Shown here: positions 9,777 through 28,870 of the stretch, in pieces | Position numbering within the stretch: the stretch's first letter is position 1 | Layout of the letters: every line of letters starts with the position of its first letter | Assembly (NCBI RefSeq): GCF_054482595.1 | Contig: NZ_CM137008.1 | Strand: one strand, 5' to 3' | DNA: 64,000 bases | The notes under the pieces: generated by a model | Database searches by the model: none | Told to the model about the DNA's origin: nothing | The model's input: the letters and a program-made list of their open reading frames with translations, nothing else | Program-made: the position numbers and the translations under genes

Positions 9777-9828
9777 ATTCGCATTCACCCTCAAGCGTAT
9801 TAACCAACAATTCAGGGATTAATGAAAG

Positions 9829-10454: not shown

Positions 10455-10455
10455 G

Positions 10456-11211
10456 ATGATTCACTACCACGGTGGGCCTATTACTCCTGATACGTGCGCA
10501 ATGAGGGCATGGAAAGGGCGACATGCGTTTATCAGTTTTGCGCATTCAGGCCAGATCAATCTCGCGGCTGAATACTGTCAGTCGTTCGCGCTGGACAACG
10601 GTGCATTCACCGCCTGGAAAGCAGCTGGCAAAAACAAAATCGACTGGAGCGATTACTACGAGTTTGTTGCTCGCTGGAAGAATCACCCAGGATTCGATTT
10701 TGCCATTATCCCGGATATTATTGATGGCGGAGAGGAGGAAAATGATGCGCTTCTGAATGAGTGGCCTCACGGAAAACTAGCTGGCGTTCCAGTGTGGCAC
10801 ATGAATGAAAGTGACGCGCGATTTATTCATTTGTGCAATGAGTTTCCGCGAGTGGCTATCGGTAGTTGTGGCGACTATGACGTAAAGCGCCCAACTCTTG
10901 CGGTAGCCAGAATGAAAGACCTGATTCGTCACATTGTTGATGGGCATGGTCAGCCGGTTACGAAACTACATGGATTGCGCATGTTAAATCCGCTGATATT
11001 CACAAAATTACCCTTAGCCAGCGCAGATAGTACGAACGTCGCTCGAAACATCGGTATTGATAAAGCCTGGTCTAGGGCTTATGCACCTGCAAGTAAAGAG
11101 ACACGCGCAGCATTAATGGTAGAACGGATTGAGGCACACAATAGCCCTGGTTCTCTTGCGTATTGTGAACAACGCGACCGCTTTGAAATGCAATTGCAAC
11201 TAGCAGTTTAA
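10456..11211 (+). CDS. TGT-fold protein, candidate DpdA-like 7-deazaguanine DNA transglycosylase (251 aa)
   Basis: Strong SD AGGAG before ATG 10456; ordered motifs LDNGAF, FAIIPD, VAIGSCG, HGLRM, ADSTNVARN resembling tRNA-guanine transglycosylase motifs DSGGYQ, MAFDE, AVGG, HYLMGVG, FDCVLPTRSGRN; no zinc-binding subdomain; assignment by eye. Confidence 0.55.
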   Translation: MIHYHGGPITPDTCAMRAWKGRHAFISFAHSGQINLAAEYCQSFALDNGAFTAWKAAGKNKIDWSDYYEFVARWKNHPGFDFAIIPDIIDGGEEENDALLNEWPHGKLAGVPVWHMNESDARFIHLCNEFPRVAIGSCGDYDVKRPTLAVARMKDLIRHIVDGHGQPVTKLHGLRMLNPLIFTKLPLASADSTNVARNIGIDKAWSRAYAPASKETRAALMVERIEAHNSPGSLAYCEQRDRFEMQLQLAV

Positions 11212-11221
11212 GGACTAACAA

Positions 11222-12019
11222 ATGACCACTATTACCAAAGAACGTATTGAATTGTTCATTAAAAATCCGCTTGAAAACGGACTTACTCGTGGCGAACAAA
11301 TGGAACTGGCACGAATTGCACTGGCATCACTGGAACGCGAACTGATTCGCCACGAGCATGCCAAATGGTCTGACTCCACATTTGGCTGCGTTGGCCCCAT
11401 TGGTCCACTGAAACACCTCTCAAAAGAGGCTCTGGAAGCCGCAGCCGAACCAGACGATCTCAGCGAGTGGGCTGATATGCATTTCCTGTTGTGGGATGCA
11501 CAGCGCCGTGCTGGCATCAGCGATGCTGAAATTACCGCTGCTATGGAAGATAAATTGAAGATCAACATGGAGCGCCAGTGGCCTGAACCAATAGATGGTG
11601 AGCCTCGCTTGCACATTAAAGAACCCGGCAACTCTCCGGTAATTCCGGATGGTTTATCCACGGTATGCGCTGAGGCTTATCAGGTTGTAGGAGTTATGGC
11701 AGATGCGCTTGGTGTATTCGGTGATGCAGCAGTACAGAAAGTTCTGGATAACCTGTCACAGCAAAAACTTGTTCACAGAGATGTGCTGCCGTTCTCGCTT
11801 CCGGTGACTCCGGATGGTTGGATAAGCTGTAGTGAGCGAATGCCGAAAGAAACGGGTGACATTATTGTTGTTTCGGATGGCATTGTAATGTCCGGGATTT
11901 CTTATTCTCGTCGTGACGGGTTCTATATAGCCGCATTGGAGTACGACGACGATGAGCCAATTGGCGGTGTAACCCACTGGATGCCTCTACCAGAACCGCC
12001 TCGATTAAAGGAGCTATAA
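11222..12019 (+). CDS. Phage protein with N-terminal dATP/dGTP pyrophosphohydrolase-like (DUF550-like) region and C-terminal DUF551-like region (265 aa)
   Basis: C-terminal motif PDGWISCSERMPKE...THWMPLPEPP typical of DUF551; N-terminal acidic region (EWADMHFLLWDAQRR) resembles MazG-like nucleotide pyrophosphohydrolases; recalled, not searched. Confidence 0.6.
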   Translation: MTTITKERIELFIKNPLENGLTRGEQMELARIALASLERELIRHEHAKWSDSTFGCVGPIGPLKHLSKEALEAAAEPDDLSEWADMHFLLWDAQRRAGISDAEITAAMEDKLKINMERQWPEPIDGEPRLHIKEPGNSPVIPDGLSTVCAEAYQVVGVMADALGVFGDAAVQKVLDNLSQQKLVHRDVLPFSLPVTPDGWISCSERMPKETGDIIVVSDGIVMSGISYSRRDGFYIAALEYDDDEPIGGVTHWMPLPEPPRLKEL

Positions 12020-12133
12020 TAGTGAACTATTATATCTATTTGTATTAAAAGAGTTTTTATAAAATAAATCTTCCAAAGCATGTAAAAACACTGTTAATCT
12101 TAACGTGTGTGAAACGTGAAGAGAGGTGTTGAA

Positions 12134-12415
12134 ATGAGCATTCATGATTTGTGTGAAGATCAAGAGCAATGGGCTATGCAGACCCTTATGGGATCAGGAG
12201 TTCTTGCAAGGTGCAGAATCCATAACGATGTAATTTTAGACAGCGGAAATGATGCTTCTTCTGCTTATAAATTAGGAACTTACCTATATCAAAAAGATAA
12301 TAGCTGCAACTTATTCAATACTCTTACTGAAGCCCGCGACGCAATAAAGGATGCATATGAATCGTATTGTGGGATCGATGATTGCCCACAATGCTCAAAA
12401 TACATTGACGATTAA
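12134..12415 (+). CDS. ea8.5: Ea8.5-like protein (93 aa from ATG 12134)
   Basis: SD GAGAGGTG upstream of ATG 12134 (ORF track starts at GTG 12116); C-terminal CPQC motif; lambda-like position and size. Confidence 0.6.
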   Translation: MSIHDLCEDQEQWAMQTLMGSGVLARCRIHNDVILDSGNDASSAYKLGTYLYQKDNSCNLFNTLTEARDAIKDAYESYCGIDDCPQCSKYIDD

Positions 12416-12503
12416 TAATATGAACAAGTAACTATCCTCGCACTCGCGGGGATTTCTTTTATCTGAACTCGCTACGGCGAGTTTTGTTTTATGGAGATGA
12501 TAA

Positions 12504-12671
12504 ATGCACTTCCGAGTTACAGGTGAATGGAATGGAGAACCATTCAACAGAGTTATCGAAGCCGAGAACATCAGCGACTGCTATGACCACTGGATGCTGT
12601 GGGCGCAGATAGCACATGCAGACGTAACCAATATTCGAATTGAAGAACTGAAAGAACACCAAGCCGCCTGA
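12504..12671 (+). CDS. lambda orf55-like protein (55 aa)
   Basis: Translation MHFRVTGEWNGEPFNRVIEAENISDCYDHWMLWAQIAHADVTNIRIEELKEHQAA; followed by hairpin and T-run; below ORF-track cutoff. Confidence 0.6.
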   Translation: MHFRVTGEWNGEPFNRVIEAENISDCYDHWMLWAQIAHADVTNIRIEELKEHQAA

Positions 12672-12710
12672 TGGCGGTTTTTTCTTGCGTGTAATTGCGG
12701 AGACTTTGCG

Positions 12711-12929
12711 ATGTACTTGACACTTCAGGAGTGGAACGCACGCCAGCGACGCCCAAGAAGCCTTGAAACAGTTCGTCGATGGGTACGCGAGTGCAGGATA
12801 TTCCCTCCTCCGGTTAAGGATGGAAGAGAGTATCTGTTCCACGAATCAGCGGTAAAGGTTGACTTAAATCGACCAGTAACAGGTAGCCTTTTGAAGAGGA
12901 TCAGAAATGGGAAGAAGGCGAAGTCATGA
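12711..12929 (+). CDS. xis: Excisionase Xis (72 aa)
   Basis: Translation MYLTLQEWNARQRRPRSLETVRRWVRECRIFPPPVKDGREYLFHESAVKVDLNRPVTGSLLKRIRNGKKAKS matches lambda Xis. Confidence 0.95.
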   Translation: MYLTLQEWNARQRRPRSLETVRRWVRECRIFPPPVKDGREYLFHESAVKVDLNRPVTGSLLKRIRNGKKAKS

Positions 12930-13980
12930 GCGCCGGGATTTACCCCCTAACCTTTATATAAGAAACAATGGATATTACTGCTACAGGGACCCAAGGACGG
13001 GTAAAGAGTTTGGATTAGGCCGAGACAGGAGGATAGCAATCACTGAAGCAATACAGGCCAATATTGAGTTACTCTCAGACAGCGGACGCAAATCACTGAT
13101 AGACAGAATTAAAGGCGGTGACGCAATCACTCTTCATGTGTGGCTTGACCGATATGAAACAATCCTCACCGAAAGGGGGATCAGGCCGAAAACTCTACTC
13201 GACTACGCCAGCAAAATCAGGGCAATCCGAAGAAAATTGCCGGACAAACCGCTCACTGACATATCAACGAAAGAAGTGGCAGCAATGCTAAACACCTACG
13301 TAGCAGAAGGTAAAGCAGCTTCCGCAAAATTAATCAGGTCAACCCTTGTTGACGTTTTTCGTGAAGCAATAGCCGAGGGGCATGTGGCAACGAATCCGGT
13401 AACAGCAACCCGTACAGCAAAGTCAGAAGTAAGGCGCTCAAGGCTGACAGCTAATGAGTATGTCGAGATTTACCATGCAGCCGAACCTCTCCCTATCTGG
13501 CTAAGGCTGGCGATGGATTTGGCCGTCGTTACAGGGCAGAGAGTCGGCGATTTGTGCAGAATGAAATGGTCAGACATAAACGACAACCATCTTCACATTA
13601 AACAGAGTAAAACAGGGGCTAAACTCGCCATTCCGCTAACGCTAACGATTGACGCGCTCAATATCTCATTGGCTGATACACTACAGAAATGCAGGGAGGC
13701 CAGCAGCAGTGAAACTATAATCGCATCAAAGCATCACGATCCGCTTTCCCCGAAAACAGTATCAAAGTATTTTACAAAGGCGAGAAATGCATCTGGCCTC
13801 TCATTTGATGGAAACCCGCCAACATTCCATGAACTGCGTAGCCTGTCAGCGAGGCTATACCGGAACCAGATTGGCGATAAGTTTGCTCAACGTCTTCTCG
13901 GGCATAAATCAGATTCAATGGCGGCGCGGTATAGGGACAGCCGTGGACGGGAATGGGACAAAATTGAAATCGACAAATGA
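12907..13980 (+). CDS. int: Tyrosine integrase Int (357 aa), lambda-family
   Basis: N-terminus MGRRRSHERRDLPPNLYIRNNGYYCYRDPRTGKEFGLGRDRRIAITEAIQANIEL and C-terminal RSLSARLY...HLLGHKSD...REWDKIEI as in lambda Int; central domain divergent. Confidence 0.95.
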   Translation: MGRRRSHERRDLPPNLYIRNNGYYCYRDPRTGKEFGLGRDRRIAITEAIQANIELLSDSGRKSLIDRIKGGDAITLHVWLDRYETILTERGIRPKTLLDYASKIRAIRRKLPDKPLTDISTKEVAAMLNTYVAEGKAASAKLIRSTLVDVFREAIAEGHVATNPVTATRTAKSEVRRSRLTANEYVEIYHAAEPLPIWLRLAMDLAVVTGQRVGDLCRMKWSDINDNHLHIKQSKTGAKLAIPLTLTIDALNISLADTLQKCREASSSETIIASKHHDPLSPKTVSKYFTKARNASGLSFDGNPPTFHELRSLSARLYRNQIGDKFAQRLLGHKSDSMAARYRDSRGREWDKIEIDK

Positions 13981-14074
13981 TTTTATTTTGACTAATAATG
14001 ACCTACTTACATTAATTTACTGATAATTAAAGAGATTTTAAATATACAACTTATTCACCTTAAGTGCACCGACC
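13981..14074. other. attL-type prophage/host junction region (P' arm with arm-type Int sites; core not resolved)
   Basis: TTTTGACTAATAATGACC resembles lambda P' arm-type sites as recalled; lies between int stop and host torS start. Confidence 0.4.
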
Positions 14075-16819
14075 GTGAATTTAACCCTGACCCGAAGACT
14101 CTGGATGGGCTTTGCCCTGATGGCACTGTTAACCCTGACCAGTACCCTGGTGGGATGGTACAACCTGCGCTTTATCAGCCAGGTGGAAAAAGACAATACT
14201 CAGGCATTGATTCCTACCATGAATATGGCGCGCCAGTTGAGCGAAGCCAGCGCCTGGGAACTTTTCGCCGCGCAGAACCTGACCAGTGCCGATAACGAAA
14301 AGATGTGGCAGGCGCAGGGGCGAATGCTCACCGCACAAAGCCTGAAGATTAATGCGTTGCTGCAAGCGTTACGGGAACAAGGTTTTGATACCACCGCTAT
14401 TGAACAACAGGAGCAGGAGATCTCCCGTTCGTTACGTCAGCAAGGGGAACTGGTGGGGCAGCGTTTGCAACTGCGCCAGCAACAACAGCGACTCAGTCAG
14501 CAGATAGTCGCTGCCGCCGATGAGATCGCACGCCTGGCGCAAGGTCAGGCGAATAATGCGACAACTTCCGCTGGAGCGACCCAGGCCGGGATTTACGATT
14601 TGATCGAACAAGATCAGCGTCAGGCTGCTGAAAGTGCACTCGACCGGCTGATTGATATCGATCTTGAGTATGTTAACCAGATGAATGAACTGCGCCTTAG
14701 CGCCCTGCGGGTGCAGCAAATGGTGATGAATCTGGGGCTGGAACAGATCCAGAAAAATGCGCCAACGCTGGAAAGGCAGCTCAATAATGCGGTGAAAATT
14801 CTGCAACGTCGGCAAATACGCATTGAAGATCCGGGAGTTCGTGCGCAGGTCGCAACAACGTTAACTACCGTTAGCCAATATAGCGATCTGTTGGCGCTGT
14901 TCCAGCAGGACAGTGAAATCAGCAATCACCTGCAAACTCTCGCCCAAAATAATATCGCCCAGTTCGCGCAGTTTAGTAGCGAAGTCAGTCAGCTGGTCGA
15001 CACCATTGAGCTGCGCAATCAGCATGGACTGGCGCATCTGGAAAAAGCCAGTGCACGCGGGCAATACAGCCTGTTATTGCTGGGGATGGTTTCACTTTGC
15101 GCACTGATTCTGATCCTCTGGCGCGTGGTTTATCGCTCAGTCACGCGTCCACTTGCCGAACAAACGCAGGCGCTGCAACGGCTGCTGGACGGTGATATTG
15201 ACTCCCCTTTTCCGGAAACCGCTGGCGTACGGGAGCTGGATACCATCGGGCGGCTGATGGATGCGTTTCGCAGCAGTGTTCATGCACTGAATCGCCACCG
15301 CGAACAGCTGGCGGCGCAGGTCAAAGCACGTACAGCTGAATTGCAGGAACTGGTGATAGAACACCGACAGGCACGGGCGGAAGCAGAAAAAGCCAGCCAG
15401 GCAAAATCGGCGTTTCTGGCGGCGATGAGCCATGAGATCCGCACACCGCTGTACGGTATTCTCGGCACCGCACAGCTACTGGCAGATAACCCCACACTTA
15501 ACGCCCAGCGTGATGATTTGCGGGCAATTACTGACTCTGGTGAATCGTTGCTGACCATCCTCAACGATATTCTCGATTATTCGGCTATCGAAGCAGGTGG
15601 CAAGAATGTTTCGGTCAGCGATGAGCCCTTTGAACCGCGCCCGCTGCTGGAAAGTACCCTGCAATTAATGAGCGGACGGGTGAAAGGTCGCCCGATTCGC
15701 CTGGCAACGGCAATTGCCGATGATGTACCGAGCGCGTTAATGGGCGATCCGCGGCGTATTCGTCAGGTCATTACCAACCTGTTGAGCAACGCCCTGCGTT
15801 TTACTGACGAAGGGCAGATCGTTTTACGTAGCCGTACTGATGGTGAGCAATGGCTGGTCGAAGTGGAAGACAGCGGCTGCGGTATTGATCCCGCGAAACT
15901 GGCAGAAATCTTCCAGCCATTTATTCAGGTAAGTGGCAAACGCGGCGGCACCGGGCTGGGGCTGACTATCAGTAGCCGTCTGGCCCAGGCGATGGGCGGC
16001 GAACTGAGCGCCACCAGCACGCTGGAGGTTGGAAGCTGTTTTTGTTTACGCTTGCCGTTACGTGTTGCCACAGCACCCGCGCCAAAAACAGCCAATCAGG
16101 CGGTGCGTCTGGACGGTTTACGTTTGCTGTTAATTGAAGATAACCCGCTAACCCAGCGAATTACCGTTGAGATGCTGAACACCAGTGGTGCGCAGGTTGT
16201 TGCTATTGGCAATGCCGCGCAGGCTTTAGAGACACTGCAAAATAGCGAACCGTTTGCTGCCGCACTGGTGGATTTTGATCTGCCGGATATCGACGGCATT
16301 ACCCTTGCCCGGCAACTGGCACAGCAATATCCGTCGCTGGTTTTGATTGGCTTTAGCGCTCATGTCATTGACGAAACGCTGCGCCAGCGTACCAGTTCAC
16401 TATTTCGCGGGATTATCCCTAAACCGGTGCCGCGTGAAGTGCTCGGTCAGTTACTGGCGCACTATCTCCACCTGCAAGTCAATAACGATCTACCACTTGA
16501 TGTATCGCAACTCAATGAAGATGCTCAATTAATGGGGACGGAGAAGATCCACGAATGGCTGGCATTATTTAAACAACATGCCCTGCCGCTTCTCGATGAA
16601 ATCGACATTGCCCGCGCCAGCCAGGACAGCGAGAAAATAAAGCGTGCCGCGCATCAGCTAAAAAGCAGTTGCTCGAGTCTGGGAATGCGTAGCGCCAGTC
16701 AGCTATGCGCACAACTGGAGCAGCAGCCATTATCTGCCCCCCTTCCACACGAAGAAATTACACGCAGTGTTGCCGCTCTGGAAGCATGGTTGAATAAGAA
16801 AGACCTGAACGCGATTTGA
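14075..16819 (+). CDS. torS: TMAO sensor hybrid histidine kinase TorS (914 aa), GTG start
   Basis: Full-length match to E. coli TorS as recalled (HAMP, HisKA/HATPase, receiver, HPt domains). Confidence 0.95.
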
Positions 16820-17978: not shown

Positions 17979-18008
17979 GAACATCACCTCGCACGGGGTG
18001 ATGTTCAC
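17979..18008. terminator. Bidirectional hairpin between convergent yccM and gnsA
   Basis: Inverted repeat AACATCACC...GGTGATGTT between the two stops. Confidence 0.5.
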
Positions 18009-18012
18009 AAAA

Positions 18013-18186
18013 TCACATTATTTTGATTTTGACATCATAACTTTCAAGCCCGGTCATTTTTTCTCGCGCGGTGAAGCGAATTTCAGAGACTTCTTTCCCT
18101 GTATTCTTGTTCAGCTCGGCGATTTTTTGCGCGATAAAGTCGGCGATTTCCGTTTCGGCTTGTTTTTTTAACTCTTCAATATTCAC
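18013..18186 (-). CDS. gnsA: GnsA (57 aa), GTG start
   Basis: Reverse translation MNIEELKKQAETEIADFIAQKIAELNKNTGKEVSEIRFTAREKMTGLESYDVKIKIM. Confidence 0.85.
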   Translation of the reverse strand: MNIEELKKQAETEIADFIAQKIAELNKNTGKEVSEIRFTAREKMTGLESYDVKIKIM

Positions 18187-18406
18187 TGTTAACCTCTTCT
18201 GGTCTTAAAAGACAGCAACACGCCAGTAAGGTGTTGGTTCCCGGTACCCTGGTCAGGTAAGAAATGTTATAAGCCATCTCCCCGAAAGATTCAATAATCA
18301 ACAGGTTATCGCTTACTATACATACAGCGTTGAAGAAAAATAAGGCAGATATAAAAAAGGCTCCACGAGGGAGCCTGATATTATTTTGTGAAATCCAGCG
18401 GCGCAT
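18176..18406 (-). CDS. ymcE: YmcE (76 aa)
   Basis: Internal Met of ORF 18176-18439 gives MRRWISQNNIRLPRGAFFISALFFF... matching K-12 YmcE. Confidence 0.8.
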   Translation of the reverse strand: MRRWISQNNIRLPRGAFFISALFFFNAVCIVSDNLLIIESFGEMAYNISYLTRVPGTNTLLACCCLLRPEEVNSEY

Positions 18407-18579
18407 GGTCAGTGCGTATTTGCAGCGCGACGTTATCAAAGGTGATCATCGTCGATTTACAAAAAATACACTTAGCGCCCAAAGGGTTTCGCTCCGTCAC
18501 ATCGAATGCCGATGTGCGGTACTGTGAACCATGACAACATGGACAGCGGAAATGGAGATGTTGAGTAATAACGGCAACC

Positions 18580-18792
18580 TTAGAGCGTAACAACGTTCGC
18601 TGCCGCGGGGCCACGTTGCCCCTGCTCAATAGAAAATTCAACTTTCTGATTTTCGTTCAGCGTGCGGAATTCATTGCTCTGGATGGCGGTGAAATGGACG
18701 AAAACGTCTTTGCTGCCATCATCAGGAGTGATAAAGCCAAAACCTTTATCTGCGTTAAACCATTTTACTAAACCAGTCATTTTATTAGACAT
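18580..18792 (-). CDS. cspG: Cold shock protein CspG (70 aa)
   Basis: CSD protein [23 protein letters not shown]...; conserved neighbourhood. Confidence 0.9.
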
Positions 18793-19077
18793 ATTTTACT
18801 TCCTTCATTTTGGGCCTTTCGGCAAACAGGGCTTTAATACAGAAACTACTTAGTGTTCAGGAGAGAGACTCAAAAGAAGGGGATAATGCCTGATAATGAG
18901 AACTGCTTTAGTAAACTACTTTGTATGCTGTCTGTCTTTCCAACCGACGCAGCTATTAACGCATGATAATTGAGATTAAGCAAATTTTATTTTAGCCGTC
19001 CGGCGGTCTTAAATATCGCTGGCTTTATTTTATTAACCCCGTATAGTGCAGCGCAGTATTTTCAGTAAGGAATTTGT

Positions 19078-19290
19078 TTGTCCCGTAAAATGACAGGAAT
19101 TGTCAAAACCTTTGATCGCAAAAGCGGCAAAGGATTCATTATCCCCTCCGACGGTCGTAAAGAAGTTCAGGTCCATATTTCCGCATTCACTCCCCGCGAC
19201 GCAGAAGTGCTTATACCAGGATTACGCGTGGAATTTTGCCGCGTAAATGGCCTGCGAGGACCAACAGCGGCAAATGTTTATCTCTCTTAA
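19078..19290 (+). CDS. cspH: Cold shock-like protein CspH (70 aa)
   Basis: CSD protein [23 protein letters not shown]... Confidence 0.9.
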
Positions 19291-19731
19291 TATGACGCTG
19301 CTTGTTTAAAGCTGACTGGTTTTATTGGCATAGTTCAATAGTCAACACCATGTATTATAACACAAGTTACTTTTTCACCGGAAAACTAATCCATTTGACC
19401 GAATATCTCTACAACTAATAGTTATAAATGCCACTTAACAGCGAGTTATAGTACCACTTGAAACTATATTGCCAACAATAGTTAATAGCTTTCTTAACAA
19501 TTTTCTTATCTTTAATTTGTATTTTGCTAAGATTTATCTTATGCTCACAAGTCGTATTTCCAGAGGGGAATAGTTAACAATCTTATATTTCCCTCTGCGC
19601 GCCTTTCTCACCCGCTGTATATAGTGCAAGTGGTATGAGGAAAGGGAGATTTCACAAGGATGTTATACTCAAAGTAGACAATCCTGATCTCAAGCGTACG
19701 TATTGTCCATGCGATGAATAAAGGAAAAGTT

Positions 19732-20037
19732 ATGAAACACAAGCTTTCTGCAATCCTTATGGCCTTCATGTTGACGACGCCAGCTGCGTTTGCTGCCCCT
19801 GAAGCAGCAAACGGGACCGAGGCAACGACGGGTACTACTGGCACCACAACGACCACTACCGGTGCAACCACGACGGCTGCTACCACTGGTGGCGTGGCTG
19901 CTGGCGCTGTCGGCACGGCGACAGTTGTCGGTGTGGCAACGGCTGTTGGTGTGGCGACGTTGGCAGTAGTTGCAGCAAATGACAGTGGCGATGGCGGTTC
20001 TCATAACACCTCAACCACCACGTCCACTACGCGCTAA
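19732..20037 (+). CDS. gfcA: GfcA (YmcD), Thr-rich secreted protein (101 aa)
   Basis: MKHKLSAILMAFMLTTPAAFA signal peptide then Thr/Gly/Ala/Val low-complexity region; ORF-track start 19714 is an upstream in-frame Met. Confidence 0.85.
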   Translation: MKHKLSAILMAFMLTTPAAFAAPEAANGTEATTGTTGTTTTTTGATTTAATTGGVAAGAVGTATVVGVATAVGVATLAVVAANDSGDGGSHNTSTTTSTTR

Positions 20038-20143
20038 TTCTGCTTAAACGCGTCGAAATTAAAGTTAAATAATACCCGGTTGCGATATTCGTACCGGGCT
20101 TTAGAGATTTGCATTTTTTTAATTAACCTTTCAAGGATTAAAG

Positions 20144-20788
20144 GTGCGCCCTCTTATTTTATCGATTTTCGCACTATTTCTTGCGGGATGTACGCACAGC
20201 CAGCAAAGTATGGTCGATACATTTCGCGCCAGCCTTTTCGATAATCAGGATATCACCGTAGCGGATCAGCAGATCCAGGCGTTGCCTTATTCCACGATGT
20301 ATTTACGCCTTAATGAAGGGCAACGAATCTTTGTGGTACTGGGATATATAGAACAAGAACAAAGCAAATGGTTATCCCAGGATAACGCCATGCTGGTTAC
20401 CCACAATGGACGTCTTTTAAAGACCGTCAAACTTAATAATAATCTGCTGGAAGTGACAAATTCCGGGCAGGACCCTCTGCGTAACGCGCTGGCAATAAAA
20501 GACGGCAGCCGCTGGACGCGCGATATTCTCTGGAGTGAAGACAACCATTTTCGCTCTGCGACCCTGAGTTCCACTTTTTCCTTTGCTGGATTAGAGACGC
20601 TGCATATTGCGGGTCGCGATGTGCTGTGTAATGTCTGGCAGGAAGAGGTGACTTCCACGCTGCCAGAAAAACAGTGGCAAAACACATTCTGGGTCGATTC
20701 GGCTACTGGCCAGGTTCGTCAAAGTCGGCAAATGTTAGGCGCAGGGGTTATTCCCGTAGAAATGACGTTTCTTAAACCCGCACCATGA
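20144..20788 (+). CDS. gfcB: GfcB (YmcC) lipoprotein (214 aa)
   Basis: Lipobox LAGC; operon position. Confidence 0.9.
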   Translation: MRPLILSIFALFLAGCTHSQQSMVDTFRASLFDNQDITVADQQIQALPYSTMYLRLNEGQRIFVVLGYIEQEQSKWLSQDNAMLVTHNGRLLKTVKLNNNLLEVTNSGQDPLRNALAIKDGSRWTRDILWSEDNHFRSATLSSTFSFAGLETLHIAGRDVLCNVWQEEVTSTLPEKQWQNTFWVDSATGQVRQSRQMLGAGVIPVEMTFLKPAP

Positions 20789-21531
20789 ATAAATTACAGT
20801 CGTATTTCATTGCCAGCGTACTTTACGTAATGACACCCCATGCCTTTGCGCAAGGAACGGTGACTATTTATCTGCCTGGCGAACAACAGACACTTTCCGT
20901 TGGCCCCGTGGAGAATGTTGCCCAGTTGGTGACACAACCGCAACTGCGCGATCGCCTCTGGTGGCCTGGTGCCCTGCTGACCGACTCCGCGGTGAAAGCT
21001 AAAGCGCTTAAAGACTACCAACATGTCATGGCACAGCTTGCTTCCTGGGAAGCAGAAGCTGACGACGATGTGGCGGCAACGATTAAATCCGTGCGCCAGC
21101 AGTTACTCAATCTCAATATTACTGGTCGCTTACCGGTCAAACTGGACCCTGATTTTGTACGAGTGGATGAGAACAGCAATCCCCCGCTGGTCGGGAACTA
21201 TACGCTCTATACCGTACAGCGCCCGGTGACTATTACTCTTCTGGGTGCGGTTTCTGGGGCTGGGCAATTGCCCTGGCAGGCAGGCCGTAGCGTTACCGAT
21301 TATCTGCAAGATCACCCCCGTCTTGCAGGCGCGGACAAGAATAACGTTATCGTGATTACGCCTGAGGGTGAGACTGTCGTCGCCCCTGTTGCCCTGTGGA
21401 ATAAAAGACATGTGGAACCACCGCCTGGCAGCCAGCTTTGGTTAGGCTTTTCTGCGCATGTACTGCCCGAAAAATATGCTGATTTAAATGACCAGATTGT
21501 GTCTGTTTTAACGCAACGTGTTCCTGACTGA
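20785..21531 (+). CDS. gfcC: GfcC (YmcB) (248 aa)
   Basis: Signal peptide; operon position; overlapping stop/start. Confidence 0.9.
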
Positions 21532-23627
21532 TGAAGAAGAATTCTTATCTTTTAAGCTGCCTGGCCATTGCCGTCTCCAGTGCCTGTCATGCTGAAGTAT
21601 TAACCTACCCGGATCCGCTGGGTTCGTCGCAATCGGACTTTGGCGGCACAGGATTGTTGCAGATGCCAAATGCGCGCATCGCACCGGAAGGTGAATTCAG
21701 CGTCAACTACCGGGATAACGATCAATACCGTTTCTACTCCACCTCCGTGGCGCTGTTCCCATGGCTGGAAGGCACCATTCGTTATACGGATGTGCGCACA
21801 CGTAAATATAGCCAGTGGGAAGATTTCAGCGGCGATCAGTCATACAAAGACAAATCATTCGATTTTAAACTTCGCCTGTGGGAAGAAGGTTACTGGCTAC
21901 CGCAAGTGGCGTTTGGTAAACGTGATATTGCTGGTACGGGTCTGTTTGACGGTGAGTATCTGGTGGCCAGCAAGCAAGCGGGGCCATTTGATTTCACCCT
22001 CGGGATGGCATGGGGCTACGCCGGTAATGCAGGCAATATTACCAACCCGTTTTGCCGGGTGAGCGATAAATATTGTCATCGCGCAGAGTCTCACGATGCG
22101 GGCGATATCAGCTTTAGCGATATCTTTCGTGGCCCAGCCTCCATCTTTGGCGGCATTGAGTATCAAACGCCGTGGAATCCCCTGCGTCTGAAACTCGAAT
22201 ACGACGGCAACAATTACCAGAATGATTTCGCTGGCAAACTGCCTCAGGCAAGCCATTTCAACGTCGGTGCAGTTTATCGCGCTGCCAGCTGGGCAGACCT
22301 CAACCTGAGTTATGAACGCGGTAACACGTTGATGTTTGGTTTCACTTTACGGACCAATTTCAACGATCTGCGCCCTGCCCTGCGCGATACGCCAAAACCG
22401 GCATATCAACCTGCGCCTGAATCTGAAGGATTGCAGTACACCACGGTAGCAAACCAACTTACCGCCCTGAAGTATAACGCGGGCTTTGACGCGCCAGAAA
22501 TTCAGCTACGCGATAAGACGCTGTATATGTCTGGTCAGCAATACAAATACCGTGACTCTCGTGAAGCGGTCGATCGTGCCAACCGGATTCTGGTGAATAA
22601 CCTGCCGCAAGGCGTTGAGAAGATTAGCGTGACGCAAAAGCGCGAGCATATGGCGATGGTGACTACCGAAACCGACGTAGCCAGCCTGCGCAAACAGCTG
22701 GCAGGTACAGCGCCTGGTCAATCAGAGCCACTGCAACAACAACGTGTTGAAGCTGAAGATCTTTCTGCCTTTGGTCGGGGCTACCGTATTCGTGAAGATC
22801 GCTTTAGCTACTCTTTCAACCCAACACTTTCACAGTCGCTGGGCGGCCCGGAAGATTTCTATATGTTCCAGCTGGGGCTGATGTCCAGCGCCCGCTACTG
22901 GTTTACCGACCACCTGCTGCTTGATGGCGGTATTTTCACCAATATTTACAACAACTACGACAAGTTTAAGTCTTCACTGTTGCCCGCGGACTCTACCCTG
23001 CCCCGCGTGCGCACGCATATCCGTGATTACGTTCGCAATGACGTTTATCTCAACAACTTGCAGGCGAATTACTTTGCCGACTTAGGCAATGGTTTCTATG
23101 GCCAGGTGTATGGCGGTTATCTGGAAACGATGTACGCCGGTGTCGGTTCCGAGCTGCTTTATCGCCCGCTAGATGCCAGCTGGGCGCTGGGTGTGGACGT
23201 TAACTACGTGAAGCAGCGTGACTGGGACAACATGATGCGCTTCACCGATTATTCCACGCCAACTGGTTTCGTGACGGCTTACTGGAACCCGCCGACGCTC
23301 AATGGCGTACTGATGAAACTTAGCGTTGGGCAATATCTGGCAAAAGATAAAGGGGCAACGATCGACGTCGCCAAACGCTTTGACAGCGGCGTGGCGGTAG
23401 GGGTATGGGCGGCAATCAGTAACGTATCTAAAGATGACTACGGCGAAGGCGGCTTTAGTAAAGGTTTTTATATCTCGATTCCGTTCGACTTGATGACCAT
23501 TGGACCTAACCGCAACCGCGCGGTGGTTTCGTGGACACCATTGACGCGTGATGGTGGACAAATGCTGTCACGCAAATACCAGCTCTATCCAATGACGGCA
23601 GAGCGAGAAGTACCGGTTGGACAATAA
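21531..23627 (+). CDS. gfcD: GfcD (YmcA) outer membrane beta-barrel lipoprotein (698 aa)
   Basis: Size, signal peptide, operon position. Confidence 0.9.
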
Positions 23628-23672
23628 CCTGACGTAATTCATAACATTACATTGACTGATAAATATAAACCA

Positions 23673-24812
23673 ATGAAAAAGAACATTTTTAAGTTTTCGG
23701 TACTGACATTGGCTGTTCTGTCTTTGACAGCATGTACCCTTGTTCCTGGTCAGAATTTATCGACCAGTAACAAGGATGTCATTGAACTACCTGACAATCA
23801 GTATGACCTGGACAAAATGGTCAATATCTATCCCGTCACGCCAGGATTGATTGATCAGTTGCGCGCCAAACCGATTATGTCGCAGGCTAACCCGGAGCTG
23901 GAGCAGCAAATCGCGAACTATGAATATCGTATCGGCATTGGTGATGTGTTGATGGTTACGGTCTGGGATCACCCGGAACTAACCACCCCCGCAGGGCAAT
24001 ACCGTAGCGCCAGTGATACCGGCAACTGGGTTAACGCCGATGGTGCGATTTTCTACCCCTATATTGGTCGCCTGAAAGTGGCCGGGAAAACACTTACCCA
24101 GGTACGCAACGAGATTACAGCGCGTCTGGATTCAGTCATTGAAAGCCCGCAGGTCGATGTCAGCGTCGCGGCGTTCCGATCGCAAAAAGCGTACGTCACC
24201 GGCGAAGTCAGCAAATCGGGTCAGCAGCCGATTACCAATATTCCTCTGACCATCATGGATGCGATTAACGCCGCAGGCGGTCTGACCGCAGATGCAGACT
24301 GGCGCAATGTGGTGCTCACCCAGAATGGCGTAAAGACCAAAGTGAACCTCTATGCGCTGATGCAGCGTGGCGACTTGCGCCAGAACAAACTGCTGCACCC
24401 GGGAGATATTTTATTTATTCCGCGCAACGATGATCTGAAAGTCTTCGTGATGGGTGAAGTGGGTAAACAGAGCACGCTGAAAATGGACCGCAGCGGTATG
24501 ACCCTGGCGGAAGCGCTGGGTAACGCTGAGGGTATGAATCAGGATGTCGCTGATGCGACGGGGATTTTTGTTATTCGTGCAACGCAAAACAAGCAGAATG
24601 GCAAAATCGCCAATATTTATCAGCTGAATGCGAAGGACGCATCGGCAATGATACTCGGAACGGAATTCCAGCTTGAACCTTACGACATTGTTTATGTCAC
24701 TACCGCGCCTCTGGCTCGTTGGAACCGTGTGATTTCTCTGCTGGTACCGACGATTTCCGGGGTGCATGACCTGACAGAGACTTCACGGTGGATTCAAACA
24801 TGGCCCAACTAA
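23673..24812 (+). CDS. gfcE: GfcE (YccZ), Wza-like polysaccharide export lipoprotein (379 aa)
   Basis: Start at [21 protein letters not shown] (lipobox); Wza-like. Confidence 0.9.
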
Positions 24813-25246
24813 AATTTAACTCAATCCTGGTGGTTTGTACCGGCAACATTTGCCGTTCGCCCATTGGCGAGCGCTTGCTGCGTAAACGTCTGCCGGGCGT
24901 AAAAGTCAAATCGGCAGGTGTTCATGGTCTGGTAAAACACCCTGCAGATGCGACAGCGGCAGATGTTGCCGCTAATCATGGCGTATCTCTTGAAGGACAT
25001 GCCGGACGTAAGCTCACTGCTGAGATGGCACGAAATTACGATCTGATTCTGGCAATGGAGTCGGAACATATTGCTCAGGTTACCGCAATCGCTCCCGAGG
25101 TCCGCGGGAAGACAATGCTGTTTGGGCAATGGCTGGAACAGAAAGAGATCCCGGATCCCTATCGTAAAAGTCAGGACGCATTTGAACATGTCTACGGTAT
25201 GTTGGAGCGCGCCAGTCAGGAATGGGCGAAGCGCCTCAGCCGGTAA
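24800..25246 (+). CDS. etp: Etp, low-molecular-weight protein-tyrosine phosphatase (148 aa)
   Basis: CTGNICRS P-loop motif; start at [16 protein letters not shown]. Confidence 0.9.
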
Positions 25247-25265
25247 TTTGAGTTTATAAAATACG

Positions 25266-27446
25266 ATGACAACTAAAAATATGAATACGCCACCAGGCAG
25301 CACTCAGGAAAATGAGATCGATCTGCTTCGTCTGGTCGGCGAGTTATGGGATCACCGTAAGTTTATTATCAGCGTGACCGCGTTATTCACGCTGATCGCT
25401 GTCGCTTACTCGCTGTTAAGCACACCAATTTATCAGGCAGATACTCTGGTCCAGGTTGAGCAAAAACAGGGCAACGCCATTCTCAGCGGCCTGAGTGATA
25501 TGATCCCTAACTCATCGCCCGAGTCTGCACCGGAGATCCAACTGCTGCAATCGCGCATGATTCTCGGTAAAACCATTGCTGAACTGAATCTGCGCGACAT
25601 GGTTGAGCAGAAGTATTTTCCGATTGTGGGTCGCGGCTGGGCGAGATTAACCAAAGAGAAACCAGGTGAGCTGGCGATCAGCTGGATGCATATTCCACAA
25701 CTGAATGGTCAGGATCAGCAACTGACACTCACGGTTGGGGAAAACGGCCACTATACGCTGGAAGGTGAAGAGTTCACCGTCAATGGTATGGTCGGCCAGC
25801 GTCTGGAAAAAGATGGCGTTGCGCTGACTATAGCGGATATTAAGGCCAAACCAGGAACACAGTTTGTCCTGAGCCAACGTACCGAACTGGAAGCGATTAA
25901 CGCGTTGCAGGAAACCTTTACCGTTAGCGAACGCAGTAAAGAAAGCGGGATGCTGGAACTTACCATGACCGGTGATGATCCCCAGTTGATTACCCGTATT
26001 CTGAACAGCATCGCTAACAACTATTTGCAACAGAATATCGCTCGCCAGGCGGCGCAGGATTCACAAAGCCTTGAATTCTTACAGCGCCAGTTGCCTGAAG
26101 TGCGCAGCGAGCTGGACCAGGCGGAAGAAAAACTCAACGTTTATCGCCAGCAGCGCGATTCGGTTGACCTTAACCTGGAAGCCAAAGCCGTTCTTGAGCA
26201 GATTGTGAACGTTGATAATCAACTCAATGAGCTGACCTTCCGCGAGGCAGAGATCTCCCAGCTGTATAAGAAAGATCACCCAACTTATCGTGCGCTGCTG
26301 GAAAAACGCCAGACGCTGGAGCAAGAACGCAAACGCCTGAATAAGCGGGTATCGGCTATGCCTTCCACCCAACAGGAAGTGTTGCGTTTAAGTCGTGACG
26401 TAGAAGCGGGCCGTGCGGTATATCTGCAATTACTTAACCGCCAGCAGGAGTTGAGTATTTCGAAATCCAGTGCCATTGGTAACGTGCGGATTATCGACCC
26501 GGCAGTCACTCAGCCGCAGCCAGTGAAACCGAAAAAAGCGTTGAACGTGGTGCTTGGTTTTATTCTTGGCCTGTTTATTTCGGTGGGTGCCGTGCTGGCG
26601 CGTGCGATGTTGCGTCGTGGTGTAGAAGCACCGGAACAACTGGAAGAGCACGGCATCAGCGTTTATGCCACTATCCCAATGTCCGAGTGGCTGGATAAAC
26701 GCACCCGTCTGCGTAAGAAAAATTTATTTTCTAATCAGCAGCGCCATCGTACTAAAAATATCCCCTTCCTGGCGGTGGATAACCCGGCGGATTCTGCTGT
26801 GGAAGCCGTACGTGCGCTACGAACCAGTCTGCATTTCGCTATGATGGAGACTGAGAATAACATTCTGATGATCACCGGTGCGACGCCAGACAGTGGTAAA
26901 ACATTTGTCAGTTCAACTCTGGCAGCGGTGATCGCCCAGTCCGATCAAAAAGTGTTATTTATTGATGCCGACTTACGCCGTGGTTATTCGCATAACCTGT
27001 TTACCGTGAGTAATGAACATGGCTTGTCGGAATATCTGGCAGGTAAAGATGAGCTCAACAAAGTGATCCAGCATTTTGGCAAAGGAGGCTTTGATGTGAT
27101 TACTCGCGGTCAGGTGCCACCTAACCCGTCTGAACTGCTGATGCGCGATCGGATGCGTCAATTACTGGAATGGGCGAACGACCATTACGATCTGGTGATT
27201 GTCGATACGCCGCCGATGCTGGCGGTGAGCGATGCTGCGGTCGTGGGGCGCTCTGTCGGCACCAGCCTGCTGGTTGCACGTTTTGGCCTGAACACCGCCA
27301 AAGAGGTGAGTTTGTCAATGCAGCGTCTGGAACAGGCAGGCGTCAATATTAAAGGCGCTATCCTCAATGGTGTGATTAAACGCGCCAGCACCGCTTACAG
27401 TTACGGCTATAACTATTACGGTTATAGTTACTCCGAGAAAGAGTAA
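25266..27446 (+). CDS. etk: Etk, BY-kinase (Wzc-like tyrosine autokinase), 726 aa
   Basis: Walker A GATPDSGKT, C-terminal Tyr cluster YSYGYNYYGYSYSEKE. Confidence 0.9.
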   Translation: MTTKNMNTPPGSTQENEIDLLRLVGELWDHRKFIISVTALFTLIAVAYSLLSTPIYQADTLVQVEQKQGNAILSGLSDMIPNSSPESAPEIQLLQSRMILGKTIAELNLRDMVEQKYFPIVGRGWARLTKEKPGELAISWMHIPQLNGQDQQLTLTVGENGHYTLEGEEFTVNGMVGQRLEKDGVALTIADIKAKPGTQFVLSQRTELEAINALQETFTVSERSKESGMLELTMTGDDPQLITRILNSIANNYLQQNIARQAAQDSQSLEFLQRQLPEVRSELDQAEEKLNVYRQQRDSVDLNLEAKAVLEQIVNVDNQLNELTFREAEISQLYKKDHPTYRALLEKRQTLEQERKRLNKRVSAMPSTQQEVLRLSRDVEAGRAVYLQLLNRQQELSISKSSAIGNVRIIDPAVTQPQPVKPKKALNVVLGFILGLFISVGAVLARAMLRRGVEAPEQLEEHGISVYATIPMSEWLDKRTRLRKKNLFSNQQRHRTKNIPFLAVDNPADSAVEAVRALRTSLHFAMMETENNILMITGATPDSGKTFVSSTLAAVIAQSDQKVLFIDADLRRGYSHNLFTVSNEHGLSEYLAGKDELNKVIQHFGKGGFDVITRGQVPPNPSELLMRDRMRQLLEWANDHYDLVIVDTPPMLAVSDAAVVGRSVGTSLLVARFGLNTAKEVSLSMQRLEQAGVNIKGAILNGVIKRASTAYSYGYNYYGYSYSEKE

Positions 27447-27460
27447 AACTGAAGGTAAAG

Positions 27461-27500
27461 TGACCGGATGCGGCGTGAACGCCTTTTCCGGTCTACGCAT
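27461..27500. repeat. REP-like palindromic element downstream of etk
   Basis: GACCGGATGCGGCGTGAACGCCTTTTCCGGTCTAC resembles the E. coli REP consensus. Confidence 0.5.
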
Positions 27501-27565
27501 TAGACAGTTCTTCGTTTGTCATCAGCCTCAGAGCATTCAGGTAGCTGAATGCTCTTTTTTATACA

Positions 27566-28870
27566 TTACAAACTGCACGCCGGTATGCGTGCTTCATTCA
27601 CGATTTGCGTAAAACCGGCCAACGAACACATGCCCTGCGCATTTCGCTCTTCACATCCTGCCAGGGTCAGTTTCACCTCTCCGGGCGGCGTATTTAATGA
27701 CAGCGGCGTTTTATCACGCATCTGCTGTAAAGTCTGGAAGACCAGCGAAACCTGAATCCACTGGCTGTTATCGCTTAGCCGACGCCAGCGTTCAAACACC
27801 AGTTCACCACCTGGCGGCGTGTTATCCGGCTGACCTGGAAGCGTCCAATTGAGCTCCAGTGCGCCGCCGAGATTTGCCAGATTAGTATCGTGTCCGGCGA
27901 TAAACAGCACTGAAGTGGGTAATGTCACACTATACGCCTGTTTTTGCGGTGGATGGGGCGTCAACGCTGTCATGATCAATTCCAACAACGGGGTGGCGCG
28001 GCTGCGGGCAACCTCTGGCGTGCGTTGTAGTAAATAAAATTGCGCGTTATGCAAACTTAGCAACGTGTTCCACTGGTGTGAATCAGTGATCCTTCCCCAC
28101 CCCGGCTCCGGCATTCCCTGTGCCTGTTGCAGGAGAAATATCTCCGTCAGCATTGATGCGAGGCTTACCGCACCGGTTAATGAGACATTGTCGGCGCTCA
28201 CCTTGAGTTCCGATGGTAATGCCTGCATTAATGAACAGCTTTCGTCCTGTTTCTCACGGTTAAGGCACAAGTTTGATTGCGGAAAATTAAGCACCCGTTC
28301 CAGTTCGCGAAACGCCGTTTGCCGATGCCCGGTAAAGTCAGCAATTGACCCTCCTGCCCTGCTGAGGATCGCGTCAGTCACGTTCGCGTTATCCAGTTGG
28401 CAAACGCCAGTTTTTAGAGGATTAAATAACGGATCGGGACTGGACGTATCTGCCTGGGTATGTACGGTTATTGCACAGTCAGGTGCCAGCCCGGCGGCGA
28501 AGGCTTCGCCTGTTTTACGGGTACGCTCGTCGACATCAGCAATAATCGCGACCTGACCAGGCTGCGGGCAGCCCTTTTTCGCCAGCAATCCGTCGGCTAC
28601 CAGACGCTGGCGTTGGTAATGTCCGAGATAGGCGATTAGCTCACCACCGCGCGGTGTCAGCCAACCTAGTTTTACCGGCCAGGTTGGCCATGCGTCTGGG
28701 GTGACATCCTGCATCAGTTGCGTGGCCTTGGTTGGGGCACGCACACCATGACGACTGACAATCACCACACTTTCCAGCTTCAGCTCCGGCTCCGGCTCAC
28801 TCTGAGCGAATGCAGATTGCGGGGTTAACGGAATCAGAAGAGATAAAAATGGGATCAAGATCGCTTTCAT
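27566..28870 (-). CDS. appA: AppA periplasmic acid phosphatase/phytase
   Basis: RHGVRAPT histidine acid phosphatase motif; start at MKAILIPFLSLLIPLTPQSAFA signal peptide. Confidence 0.9.
   Translation of the reverse strand: MKAILIPFLSLLIPLTPQSAFAQSEPEPELKLESVVIVSRHGVRAPTKATQLMQDVTPDAWPTWPVKLGWLTPRGGELIAYLGHYQRQRLVADGLLAKKGCPQPGQVAIIADVDERTRKTGEAFAAGLAPDCAITVHTQADTSSPDPLFNPLKTGVCQLDNANVTDAILSRAGGSIADFTGHRQTAFRELERVLNFPQSNLCLNREKQDESCSLMQALPSELKVSADNVSLTGAVSLASMLTEIFLLQQAQGMPEPGWGRITDSHQWNTLLSLHNAQFYLLQRTPEVARSRATPLLELIMTALTPHPPQKQAYSVTLPTSVLFIAGHDTNLANLGGALELNWTLPGQPDNTPPGGELVFERWRRLSDNSQWIQVSLVFQTLQQMRDKTPLSLNTPPGEVKLTLAGCEERNAQGMCSLAGFTQIVNEARIPACSL

What the first reader, a model, noticed from the sequence alone, without database searches (positions are those of the whole stretch)
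19291..19731. gfc (group 4 capsule) operon upstream region is not interrupted by IS1, unlike K-12
The cspH-gfcA intergenic region is ~440 bp of AT-rich DNA with no IS1 sequence, whereas in K-12 I recall an IS1 copy between cspH and gfcA disrupting the promoter. The gfcABCDE-etp-etk locus here is complete and potentially expressed, pointing to a non-K-12 background.
Basis: partly seen in the sequence, partly recalled or inferred. Interest (0 to 1): 0.3.

Follow-up and report, generated by a model that had tools for sequence, protein, structure and literature searches.

The report
Intact gfc capsule-operon upstream region
The stretch between cspH and the group 4 capsule operon here lacks the IS1 element that splits it in laboratory K-12, but this is the normal, already published state of most E. 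coli, so the finding is correct and ordinary.

Summary
Window 19291-19731 is the 441-bp, 35% G+C spacer between cspH and gfcA, and there is no IS1 anywhere in the 64-kb window. K-12 carries a 768-bp IS1D at window 19699-19707, with a 9-bp target duplication (CGTATTGTC). Its end lies 33 nt before the gfcA ATG.

All seven genes (gfcABCDE-etp-etk) are full length and 97.6-100% identical to the functional EPEC E2348/69 proteins.

This is known. Papers citing Peleg 2005 state that IS1 interrupts the operon's promoter region in K-12 but not in pathogenic strains.

Among 5,426 complete E. coli genomes:
- about 3,400 hold the spacer;
- 391 of those have IS1 at the K-12 site, and the seven sampled look like laboratory strains;
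- about one third lack the operon entirely.

So the uninterrupted spacer excludes K-12 and says little else.

Not reported in the papers I could search: the gfcA-proximal half of the spacer is nearly invariant. It holds a unique extended -10 motif (TGTTATACT, 19661-19669), which coincides with a strong orphan RNA-polymerase binding peak in K-12. It also holds a perfect RcsB-box match and a hairpin. If that promoter is real, IS1D sits in the 5' UTR rather than in the promoter.

An intact spacer does not guarantee a capsule: EHEC, with a 99.5% identical spacer, expresses gfcA weakly.

The parts
19078..19290 (+). cspH (cold shock-like protein CspH), the upstream neighbour
   Evidence: NCBIfam equivalog NF012008, 165 bits against a cut-off of 141. 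RefSeq annotation of the identical XH990 region.
19291..19731 (+). cspH-gfcA spacer, 441 bp, G+C 0.351, uninterrupted
   Evidence: No IS1 homology in the window. Collinear with EPEC, O157:H7 and five other strains.
19291..19504 (+). Variable half of the spacer, next to cspH (about 11% different from K-12)
   Evidence: Eight-strain alignment.
19505..19731 (+). Nearly invariant half of the spacer, next to gfcA; presumed regulatory region and leader
   Evidence: Eight-strain alignment. A complementing S. sonnei clone described as carrying its 'own promoter' starts at the primer matching 19439-19460 (PMC4368438).
19528..19541 (+). TAAGATTTATCTTA, a perfect match to the RcsB box TN(G/A)GAN4TC(T/C)NA (motif match only)
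   Evidence: The only match in the 64-kb window, with 2.74 expected by chance per window. Consensus from PMC7913699. Invariant in 8 strains.
19561..19597 (+). 12-bp-stem hairpin (CAGAGGGGAATA...TATTTCCCTCTG); role unknown
   Evidence: Free energy -16.5 kcal/mol, z-score -3.6. The two natural variants, A19569G and G19568A, keep pairing as RNA.
19661..19669 (+). TGTTATACT, a candidate extended -10 promoter element of the sigma-70/sigma-S type; predicted transcription start near 19676
   Evidence: The only TGNTATACT in the window, with 0.81 expected. Invariant in 8 strains. The K-12 genomic SELEX RpoS-holoenzyme peak at map 1049830 between insB and cspH, intensity 167.2, maps to about window 19646 (PMC5493296).
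19699..19707 (.). CGTATTGTC, the empty target site of K-12 IS1D (duplicated on both sides of IS1 in K-12)
19721..19725 (+). AAGGA, the Shine-Dalgarno sequence of gfcA, 6 nt before the ATG
   Evidence: Read directly from the sequence.
19732..20037 (+). gfcA (ymcD), 101 aa, threonine-rich inner membrane protein
   Evidence: RefSeq annotation of the identical XH990 region. 98% identical to EPEC GfcA.
20144..20788 (+). gfcB (ymcC), 214 aa lipoprotein
   Evidence: 99.5% identical to EPEC.
20785..21531 (+). gfcC (ymcB), 248 aa
   Evidence: 97.6% identical to EPEC.
21531..23627 (+). gfcD (ymcA), 698 aa, YjbH-domain outer membrane protein
   Evidence: 99.4% identical to EPEC.
23673..24812 (+). gfcE (yccZ), 379 aa, Wza-like polysaccharide export protein
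   Evidence: NCBIfam NF011658, 703 bits. (100% identical to EPEC).
24800..25246 (+). etp (yccY), 148 aa phosphotyrosine phosphatase
   Evidence: NCBIfam NF008486, 334 bits. (100% identical to EPEC).
25266..27446 (+). etk (yccC), 726 aa tyrosine autokinase
   Evidence: NCBIfam NF007350, 1596 bits. (99.6% identical to EPEC).

Best explanation
This is the ordinary, ancestral, uninterrupted form of the E. coli group 4 capsule (gfc/g4c) locus: cspH, a 441-bp regulatory spacer, then gfcABCDE-etp-etk.

Shown:
- The spacer and all seven genes are intact.
- The K-12 lineage differs by a 768-bp IS1D inserted at window 19699-19707, 33 nt before the gfcA ATG. Its transposase gene reads away from gfcA.

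Inferred:
- Transcription starts from an extended -10 promoter, TGTTATACT, at 19661-19669, with a start near 19676 and a 5' UTR of about 55 nt.
- On that reading, IS1D in K-12 lies in the 5' UTR. It separates an intact, now orphan, promoter from the operon by 777 bp of polar IS1 DNA.
- In the window the promoter, leader, ribosome binding site and operon are contiguous, so the export machinery can be made. This happens mainly in exponential growth, at a level set by unidentified regulators.
- A perfect RcsB-box match at 19528-19541 is one candidate regulatory input.
For: Anatomy and K-12 comparison.

Gene identity and integrity.

Population: 391 of about 3,409 spacer-bearing complete genomes have IS1 at this site, and six of the seven sampled are named laboratory K-12 derivatives or engineered strains (one search gives 401).

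Literature on the K-12 insertion:
- IS1 is in the ymc operon promoter in K-12 but not in pathogenic strains (PMC2516531).
[quoted passage not shown] Promoter:
- The half of the spacer next to gfcA is nearly invariant.
- TGNTATACT occurs only once in 64 kb.
- In K-12, a very strong RpoS-holoenzyme peak (167.2) lies in the insB-cspH spacer. The authors classed it as downstream of both neighbouring genes (PMC5493296). It maps to window 19595-19707.
- A S. sonnei clone starting at 19439 restores the capsule (PMC4368438).

Expression with an intact spacer: in O157:H7 Sakai, yccZ, yccY and yccC are transcribed in exponential phase and fall 5- to 7-fold at the stationary-phase transition (PMC2241611).
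Against: - No transcription start has been mapped in any source I could read. Peleg 2005 is not held.
- A second candidate promoter, TTGTAT-17-TATGCT at 19517-19545, scores similarly in a hexamer scan. No candidate beats shuffled sequence.
- The SELEX peak might owe something to the adjacent IS1 end, because another RpoS peak lies beside the insB end of a different IS1 copy, next to argF.
- The drop in expression at stationary phase, while rpoS rises, argues against sigma-S as the sigma factor used in vivo.
- ymcD changes only +1.48-fold in an rcsB-disrupted O157:H7 strain (PMC5343319), so the RcsB box may be inert.
- EHEC, with a 99.5% identical spacer, showed no capsule under one condition.
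Confidence: 0.9

Rival explanations
1. The locus is intact but effectively silent in this strain. An uninterrupted spacer is necessary but not sufficient, and regulation, or the lack of a suitable Wzy-dependent O-antigen, keeps the capsule from forming.
For: EHEC O157:H7, whose spacer differs from the window at 2 of 441 positions, had 30-fold less gfcA mRNA than EPEC and no visible capsule in N-minimal medium (PMC3853201). The O-antigen cluster is outside the window.
Against: O157:H7 Sakai clearly transcribes the distal genes in exponential phase. From memory of Shifrin 2008, which I did not check, EHEC does form a group 4 capsule under other conditions. All seven proteins are 97.6-100% identical to the functional EPEC set.
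Confidence: 0.3
2. The real promoter lies further upstream: TTGTAT-17-TATGCT at 19517-19545, with a start near 19552. The mRNA would then carry a leader of about 180 nt that begins with the 19561-19597 hairpin, and the RcsB box would overlap the promoter as a repressor site.
For: This is the second-best hexamer pair in the scan. The region is conserved. The 200-nt leader folds better than shuffles, z = -3.9. The hairpin variants keep RNA pairing. The small rise in ymcD in an rcsB mutant fits repression.
Against: Strain 33F4 carries T19545C, which destroys the key last T of this -10. The score is below the mean best score of shuffled sequence. The SELEX peak centre, about 19646, is 100 bp downstream.
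Confidence: 0.2
3. gfc transcription depends on read-through from cspH, and the spacer has no strong promoter of its own.
For: cspH and gfcA are on the same strand, and the scan finds no terminator-like site between them.
Against: A clone starting at 19439, well downstream of cspH, complements a S. sonnei deletion of the operon. RNA polymerase holoenzyme binds strongly inside the spacer. The conserved half is the one next to gfcA, not the one next to cspH.
Confidence: 0.05

Closest known systems
EPEC O127:H6 E2348/69 gfc (g4c) operon, ymcDCBA-yccZ-etp-etk (Peleg et al. 2005; PMC8592465)
   Same: Same seven genes, order, strand and flanking genes (cspH on one side). The spacer is also 441 bp and uninterrupted. 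The proteins are 97.6-100% identical.
   Different: The spacer is 94.1% identical, with the differences mostly in the half next to cspH. A few lie next to gfcA (19608, 19616, 19628-19631, 19679) and could bear on the reported difference in expression between EPEC and EHEC. The O-antigen type of the window strain is unknown.
EHEC O157:H7 / O55:H7 gfc locus
   Same: The closest named lineage. The spacer is 99.5% identical (2 SNPs) and window 16000-40000 is 99.3% identical to O55:H7.
   Different: The window is 100% identical over window 16000-40000 to a different set of strains (XH990, O157:H16 Santai, APEC37 and others).
E. coli K-12 gfc locus with IS1D (b0988/b4516)
   Same: The same genes and the same spacer backbone, 93.7% identical once IS1 is removed.
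   Different: K-12 has a 768-bp IS1D plus a 9-bp target duplication at window 19699-19707. The window has the empty site.
UTI89-type (many B2/ExPEC) deletion allele
   Same: Same flanking genes, cspH and appA.
   Different: About 8.3 kb (window 19289-27574) is missing, covering the spacer and all seven genes, so cspH abuts appA. About one third of complete genomes resemble this.
yjbEFGH, the K-12 paralogue of gfcABCD
   Same: Paralogous exopolysaccharide genes. I recall from memory (Ferrieres 2007, not read here) that they are Rcs-regulated, which makes the RcsB-box match in the gfc spacer a reasonable lead.
   Different: A different locus with no gfcE-etp-etk. Rcs control of gfc is untested, and the one transcriptome found shows only a +1.48-fold change.

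Membership tests
Intact E. coli group 4 capsule (gfc/g4c) operon | Seven genes, gfcA-gfcB-gfcC-gfcD-gfcE-etp-etk, in this order on one strand, each full length | tested here: met
   ORFs and lengths 101/214/248/698/379/148/726 aa, with no internal stops, and 97.6-100% identity to EPEC E2348/69. NCBIfam hits for GfcE, Etp and Etk above the curated cut-offs.
Intact E. coli group 4 capsule (gfc/g4c) operon | Chromosomal position between cspH and appA | tested here: met
   cspH at 19078-19290 and appA at 27566-28870 on the minus strand.
Intact E. coli group 4 capsule (gfc/g4c) operon | Upstream region not interrupted by an insertion sequence | tested here: met
   Collinear with EPEC, O157:H7 and five other strains. 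No IS1 homology in the window.
Intact E. coli group 4 capsule (gfc/g4c) operon | A gfc-dependent O-antigen capsule is actually produced, which needs a Wzy-dependent O-antigen cluster and expression of the operon | not testable with these tools
   The O-antigen cluster lies outside the window. Expression requires experiment. The literature shows that expression depends on strain and condition.
K-12-type IS1D-interrupted gfc allele | A 768-bp IS1 flanked by duplicated CGTATTGTC, 33 nt upstream of the gfcA ATG | tested here: not met
   The window has a single copy of CGTATTGTC at 19699-19707 and no IS1.
RcsB-regulated promoter | An RcsB box TN(G/A)GAN4TC(T/C)NA upstream of the gene | tested here: met
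   TAAGATTTATCTTA at 19528-19541 is the only match in the window. Consensus from PMC7913699.
RcsB-regulated promoter | RcsB binding and RcsB-dependent transcription | tested here: inconclusive
   No binding data were found. ymcD rose +1.48-fold in an rcsB-disrupted O157:H7 isolate (PMC5343319), a small effect in the direction opposite to activation.
Extended -10 (sigma-70/sigma-S) promoter | A TGn + TATAAT-like hexamer, correctly oriented upstream of the gene | tested here: met
   TGTTATACT at 19661-19669 on the plus strand, unique in the window and invariant in 8 strains.
Extended -10 (sigma-70/sigma-S) promoter | RNA polymerase binding and a mapped transcription start | tested here: inconclusive
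   RpoS and RpoE holoenzyme SELEX peaks in the K-12 insB-cspH spacer map to about window 19646 (PMC5493296). No transcription-start data were found.

The most novel reading that the evidence does not exclude
The gfc promoter has been mis-described. IS1D in K-12 does not sit in the promoter but about 25-30 nt into the 5' UTR. That leaves an intact, very strong RNA-polymerase binding site, TGTTATACT at window 19661-19669, stranded next to IS1. This would explain the unassigned 'type-C' RpoS-holoenzyme SELEX peak between insB and cspH. Upstream of it, a conserved RcsB box and a hairpin would form an uncharacterised control region for the group 4 capsule.
Probability: 0.45. Interest if true: 0.3.

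Novelty: already known. Interest (0 to 1): 0.12.

Why it matters
For genome annotation it serves only as a strain marker. The empty IS1D site excludes a K-12 origin, and the intact seven-gene operon means the strain could export an O-antigen (group 4) capsule, a trait tied to colonisation and resistance to defensins and complement in EPEC, EHEC and S. sonnei. There is a small added point. The regulation of this operon was called unknown in 2008 (PMC2516531), and no regulator or promoter for it turned up in my searches. The conserved 230 bp next to gfcA, with a candidate promoter, an RcsB box and a hairpin, is a concrete and cheap target for reporter and transcription-start experiments. It would also assign a gene to one of the strongest orphan RNA-polymerase peaks in K-12.

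Tried and rejected
- Rfam scan of 18000-21000 at E <= 1: nothing in the spacer. The hits were the cspA thermoregulator upstream of cspG, a weak STnc220 hit and a chance isrG hit inside gfcA.
- Consensus promoter/terminator scan: three promoter-like sites against 2.6 expected, so uninformative. It needs both hexamers and therefore misses extended -10 promoters.
- My own hexamer-weight scan: the best score, 8.24, is below the mean best score of shuffles, 8.73. No -35/-10 pair stands out.
- JUMPstart/ops (RfaH) element: I read the sequence for GGCGGTAG and found none. Only a loose resemblance to the first half of JUMPstart at 19623-19636, which I dropped.
- Exact-pattern scan of one genome per species for the hairpin and its flanks: no matches. 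My guess, from memory, is that the E. coli species representative lacks gfc. So no cross-species covariation test was possible. I ran no further search on a low-interest finding.
- Peleg 2005 could not be read, by DOI or by PMC id. Its content is cited only through papers that quote it.
- ORFs antisense to gfcA (19608-19916 and 19690-20004, minus strand): these lie opposite the annotated gfcA and I did not treat them as genes.
- EC5502 as the source strain: it has the same prophage at 100% identity, but a K-12-like gfcA allele. Rejected.

Full report
**1. What is at the coordinates**

cspH occupies 19078-19290 on the plus strand. It matches the NCBIfam CspH equivalog at 165 bits against a cut-off of 141. 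The gfcA ATG is at 19732. The interval 19291-19731 is therefore the 441-bp cspH-gfcA spacer. Its G+C is 0.351, against 0.502 for the window and 0.511 for the operon.

Downstream lie gfcB (20144-20788), gfcC (20785-21531), gfcD (21531-23627), gfcE (23673-24812), etp (24800-25246) and etk (25266-27446), followed by appA on the opposite strand. All seven products are full length and 97.6-100% identical to those of EPEC O127:H6 E2348/69, the strain in which the operon was shown to be needed for the capsule.

**2.

A 1,101-bp query spanning cspH to gfcA matches K-12 DH10B in two pieces that span 1,878 bp. RefSeq annotates an 'IS1-like element IS1D family transposase' between cspH and gfcA, on the strand opposite to gfcA.

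blastn places the break at query 700-708. Reading the junctions shows a 768-bp IS1 with its terminal inverted repeats, flanked on both sides by CGTATTGTC. The window has this 9-mer once, at 19699-19707.

In K-12 the IS1 end is therefore 33 nt upstream of the gfcA ATG (the 9-bp duplication plus 24 nt). No part of IS1 is present anywhere in the 64-kb window; the best hits are 12-18 bases.

**3. How common each state is**

Among 5,426 complete E. coli genomes, a query made of the K-12 spacer plus 200 bp of IS1 finds the spacer in 3,409 genomes. In 391 of them the match runs across the junction. In the rest it stops at or before position 417, the insertion point. A 200-bp junction query gives 401.

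Six of the seven sampled junction-positive genomes are named laboratory K-12 derivatives or engineered strains (ER1709, MG1655, JME65, GB2005, Sel(hit) and a 'laboratory developed' strain). The seventh, TSW4848-W1, derives from a lake isolate.

About one third of genomes keep only cspH. In UTI89, cspH abuts appA, and about 8.3 kb corresponding to window 19289-27574 is missing. One strain, 3PT, has an IS3 replacing 19807-21006.

The uninterrupted spacer is thus the majority state wherever the operon exists. It excludes K-12 but does not mark a pathotype.

**4. Strain background**

Window 14047-64000 is 99.99% identical to strain XH990. Window 16000-40000 is 100% identical to O157:H16 Santai, APEC37 and others, and 99.3% identical to O55:H7. 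The spacer is 99.5% identical to O157:H7 but only 93.7% to K-12 and 94.1% to EPEC. Across the collection the spacer falls into two allele classes. In 2,670 genomes it is at least 99% like K-12, and in 615 it is 90-95% like K-12. The window belongs to the second class.

**5. It is already known**

[quoted passage not shown] 2005.
[quoted passage not shown] From memory, the abstract of Peleg 2005 says the same. The paper itself is not held.

**6. Anatomy of the spacer (partly new, partly inferred)**

An alignment of eight strains shows two halves. Positions 19291-19504 are variable, about 11% different from K-12. Positions 19505-19731 are almost invariant. The invariant half contains four features.

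(a) TAAGATTTATCTTA at 19528-19541 is a perfect inverted repeat that fits the RcsB box TN(G/A)GAN4TC(T/C)NA defined in PMC7913699. It is the only match in the window, where 2.74 are expected by chance, which is about 0.02 per 441 bp.

(b) A hairpin with a 12-bp stem lies at 19561-19597, at -16.5 kcal/mol and z = -3.6. Its two natural variants, A19569G in the K-12-like alleles and G19568A in strain 33F4, both keep pairing if it is read as RNA.

(c) TGTTATACT at 19661-19669 is an extended -10 element (TGn plus TATACT). It is the only TGNTATACT in the window, with 0.81 expected on both strands. It predicts a start near 19676 and a leader of about 55 nt.

(d) An AAGGA Shine-Dalgarno sequence lies 6 nt before the ATG.

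**7. Independent support for a promoter next to the IS1 site**

A genomic SELEX study of K-12 RNA polymerase holoenzymes lists RpoS peak no. 46 at map position 1049830, between insB and cspH, with intensity 167.2. The maximum in that data set is 390. The authors class it as 'type C', meaning downstream of both neighbouring genes, so they assign it to no gene (PMC5493296). The same site appears in the RpoE list at 6.3.

I calibrated the coordinates against the paper's own neighbouring peaks: the cspH-cspG spacer at 1050632 and a site inside gfcB at 1048250. On that basis the peak must lie at window 19595-19707. Using the cspH coordinates I recall for that genome version, it lies at about 19646, within 25 bp of TGTTATACT.

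The simplest reading is that this is the native gfc promoter, orphaned in K-12 by IS1D. One caveat: another RpoS peak lies beside the insB end of a different IS1 copy, next to argF, with intensity 25.0.

A S. sonnei complementation clone described as carrying the operon 'with its own promoter' begins at a primer that matches window 19439-19460 (PMC4368438). That bounds a functional promoter to 19439-19731, unless the vector supplies transcription.

**8. Expression is conditional**

In O157:H7 Sakai, yccZ (gfcE), yccY (etp) and yccC (etk) fall by log2 2.3-2.8 at the stationary-phase transition, while rpoS rises 7-fold. They cluster with the O-antigen genes (PMC2241611). So the operon is on in exponential growth, and sigma-S is unlikely to be the sigma factor that drives it in vivo. 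An extended -10 element with TATACT suits sigma-70 equally well.

EHEC made 30-fold less gfcA mRNA than EPEC and showed no capsule in N-minimal medium (PMC3853201). An rcsB-disrupted O157:H7 isolate showed ymcD at only +1.48-fold (PMC5343319), so the RcsB box is a motif match of unproven function. The 2008 paper already noted that the mechanisms governing expression of the ymc operon were unknown. My searches found no later mapping of the promoter or its regulators.

**9. Verdict**

The content is textbook-level for this locus: it is the uninterrupted gfc locus found in most genomes that carry the operon. The only additions are the exact insertion coordinates, population frequencies, and a testable proposal that IS1D sits in the 5' UTR downstream of a strong, conserved extended -10 promoter. 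Interest is low.

Noticed in passing
window 1-14046: This is the early-gene end of a lambdoid prophage (ninB, ren, P, O-like, cII, cro-like and cI-like repressors, sieB, cIII, kil, gam, bet, exo, xis, and int at about 12907-13980). It is integrated directly upstream of torS. It is absent from XH990, whose chromosome is otherwise 99.99% identical over 14047-64000. It is 100% identical to a prophage at the same site in EC5502 and 4FM. E2348/69 also has a prophage integrase beside torS.
   Followed up: partly
window 19289-27574: About one third of complete E. coli genomes (for example UTI89) carry a clean deletion of about 8.3 kb covering exactly this interval. It fuses the 3' end of cspH to the 3' end of appA, so both genes have altered last codons and their annotations overlap.
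   Followed up: partly
L003 3808-5068 (strain 3PT), corresponding to window 19807-21006: An independent way of inactivating the same operon: an IS3 element replaces the 3' part of gfcA, all of gfcB and the 5' part of gfcC.
   Followed up: no
window 19291-19504: The half of the spacer next to cspH is dimorphic across E. coli. There is a K-12-like class (2,670 genomes at 99% or more) and a window/O157-like class (615 genomes at 90-95%). They differ by about 11% here but only about 2% in the half next to gfcA. Strain XJ5.2 has a 7-bp deletion at 19345-19351.
   Followed up: partly
window 18526-18948, minus strand: An Rfam cspA thermoregulator match (153 bits, E = 3.6e-41) covers the cspG 5' UTR and coding start, divergent from cspH. 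A weak STnc220 match (34 bits, below gathering) lies at 18343-18423 in ymcE/ymcF.
   Followed up: no
window 19608-19679: EPEC E2348/69, the high expresser, differs from the window and O157:H7, the low expresser, at only a few positions in the conserved half next to gfcA: 19608, 19616, 19628-19629, 19631 and 19679. The last is 3 nt after the predicted start. These are candidates for the 30-fold difference in expression reported in PMC3853201.
   Followed up: no
L002 10680-13423 (E2348/69) and L004 1-820 (UTI89): torS is annotated as frameshifted in both E2348/69 and this UTI89 assembly. In the window-like strain XH990 it is intact, at 14075-16819.
   Followed up: no
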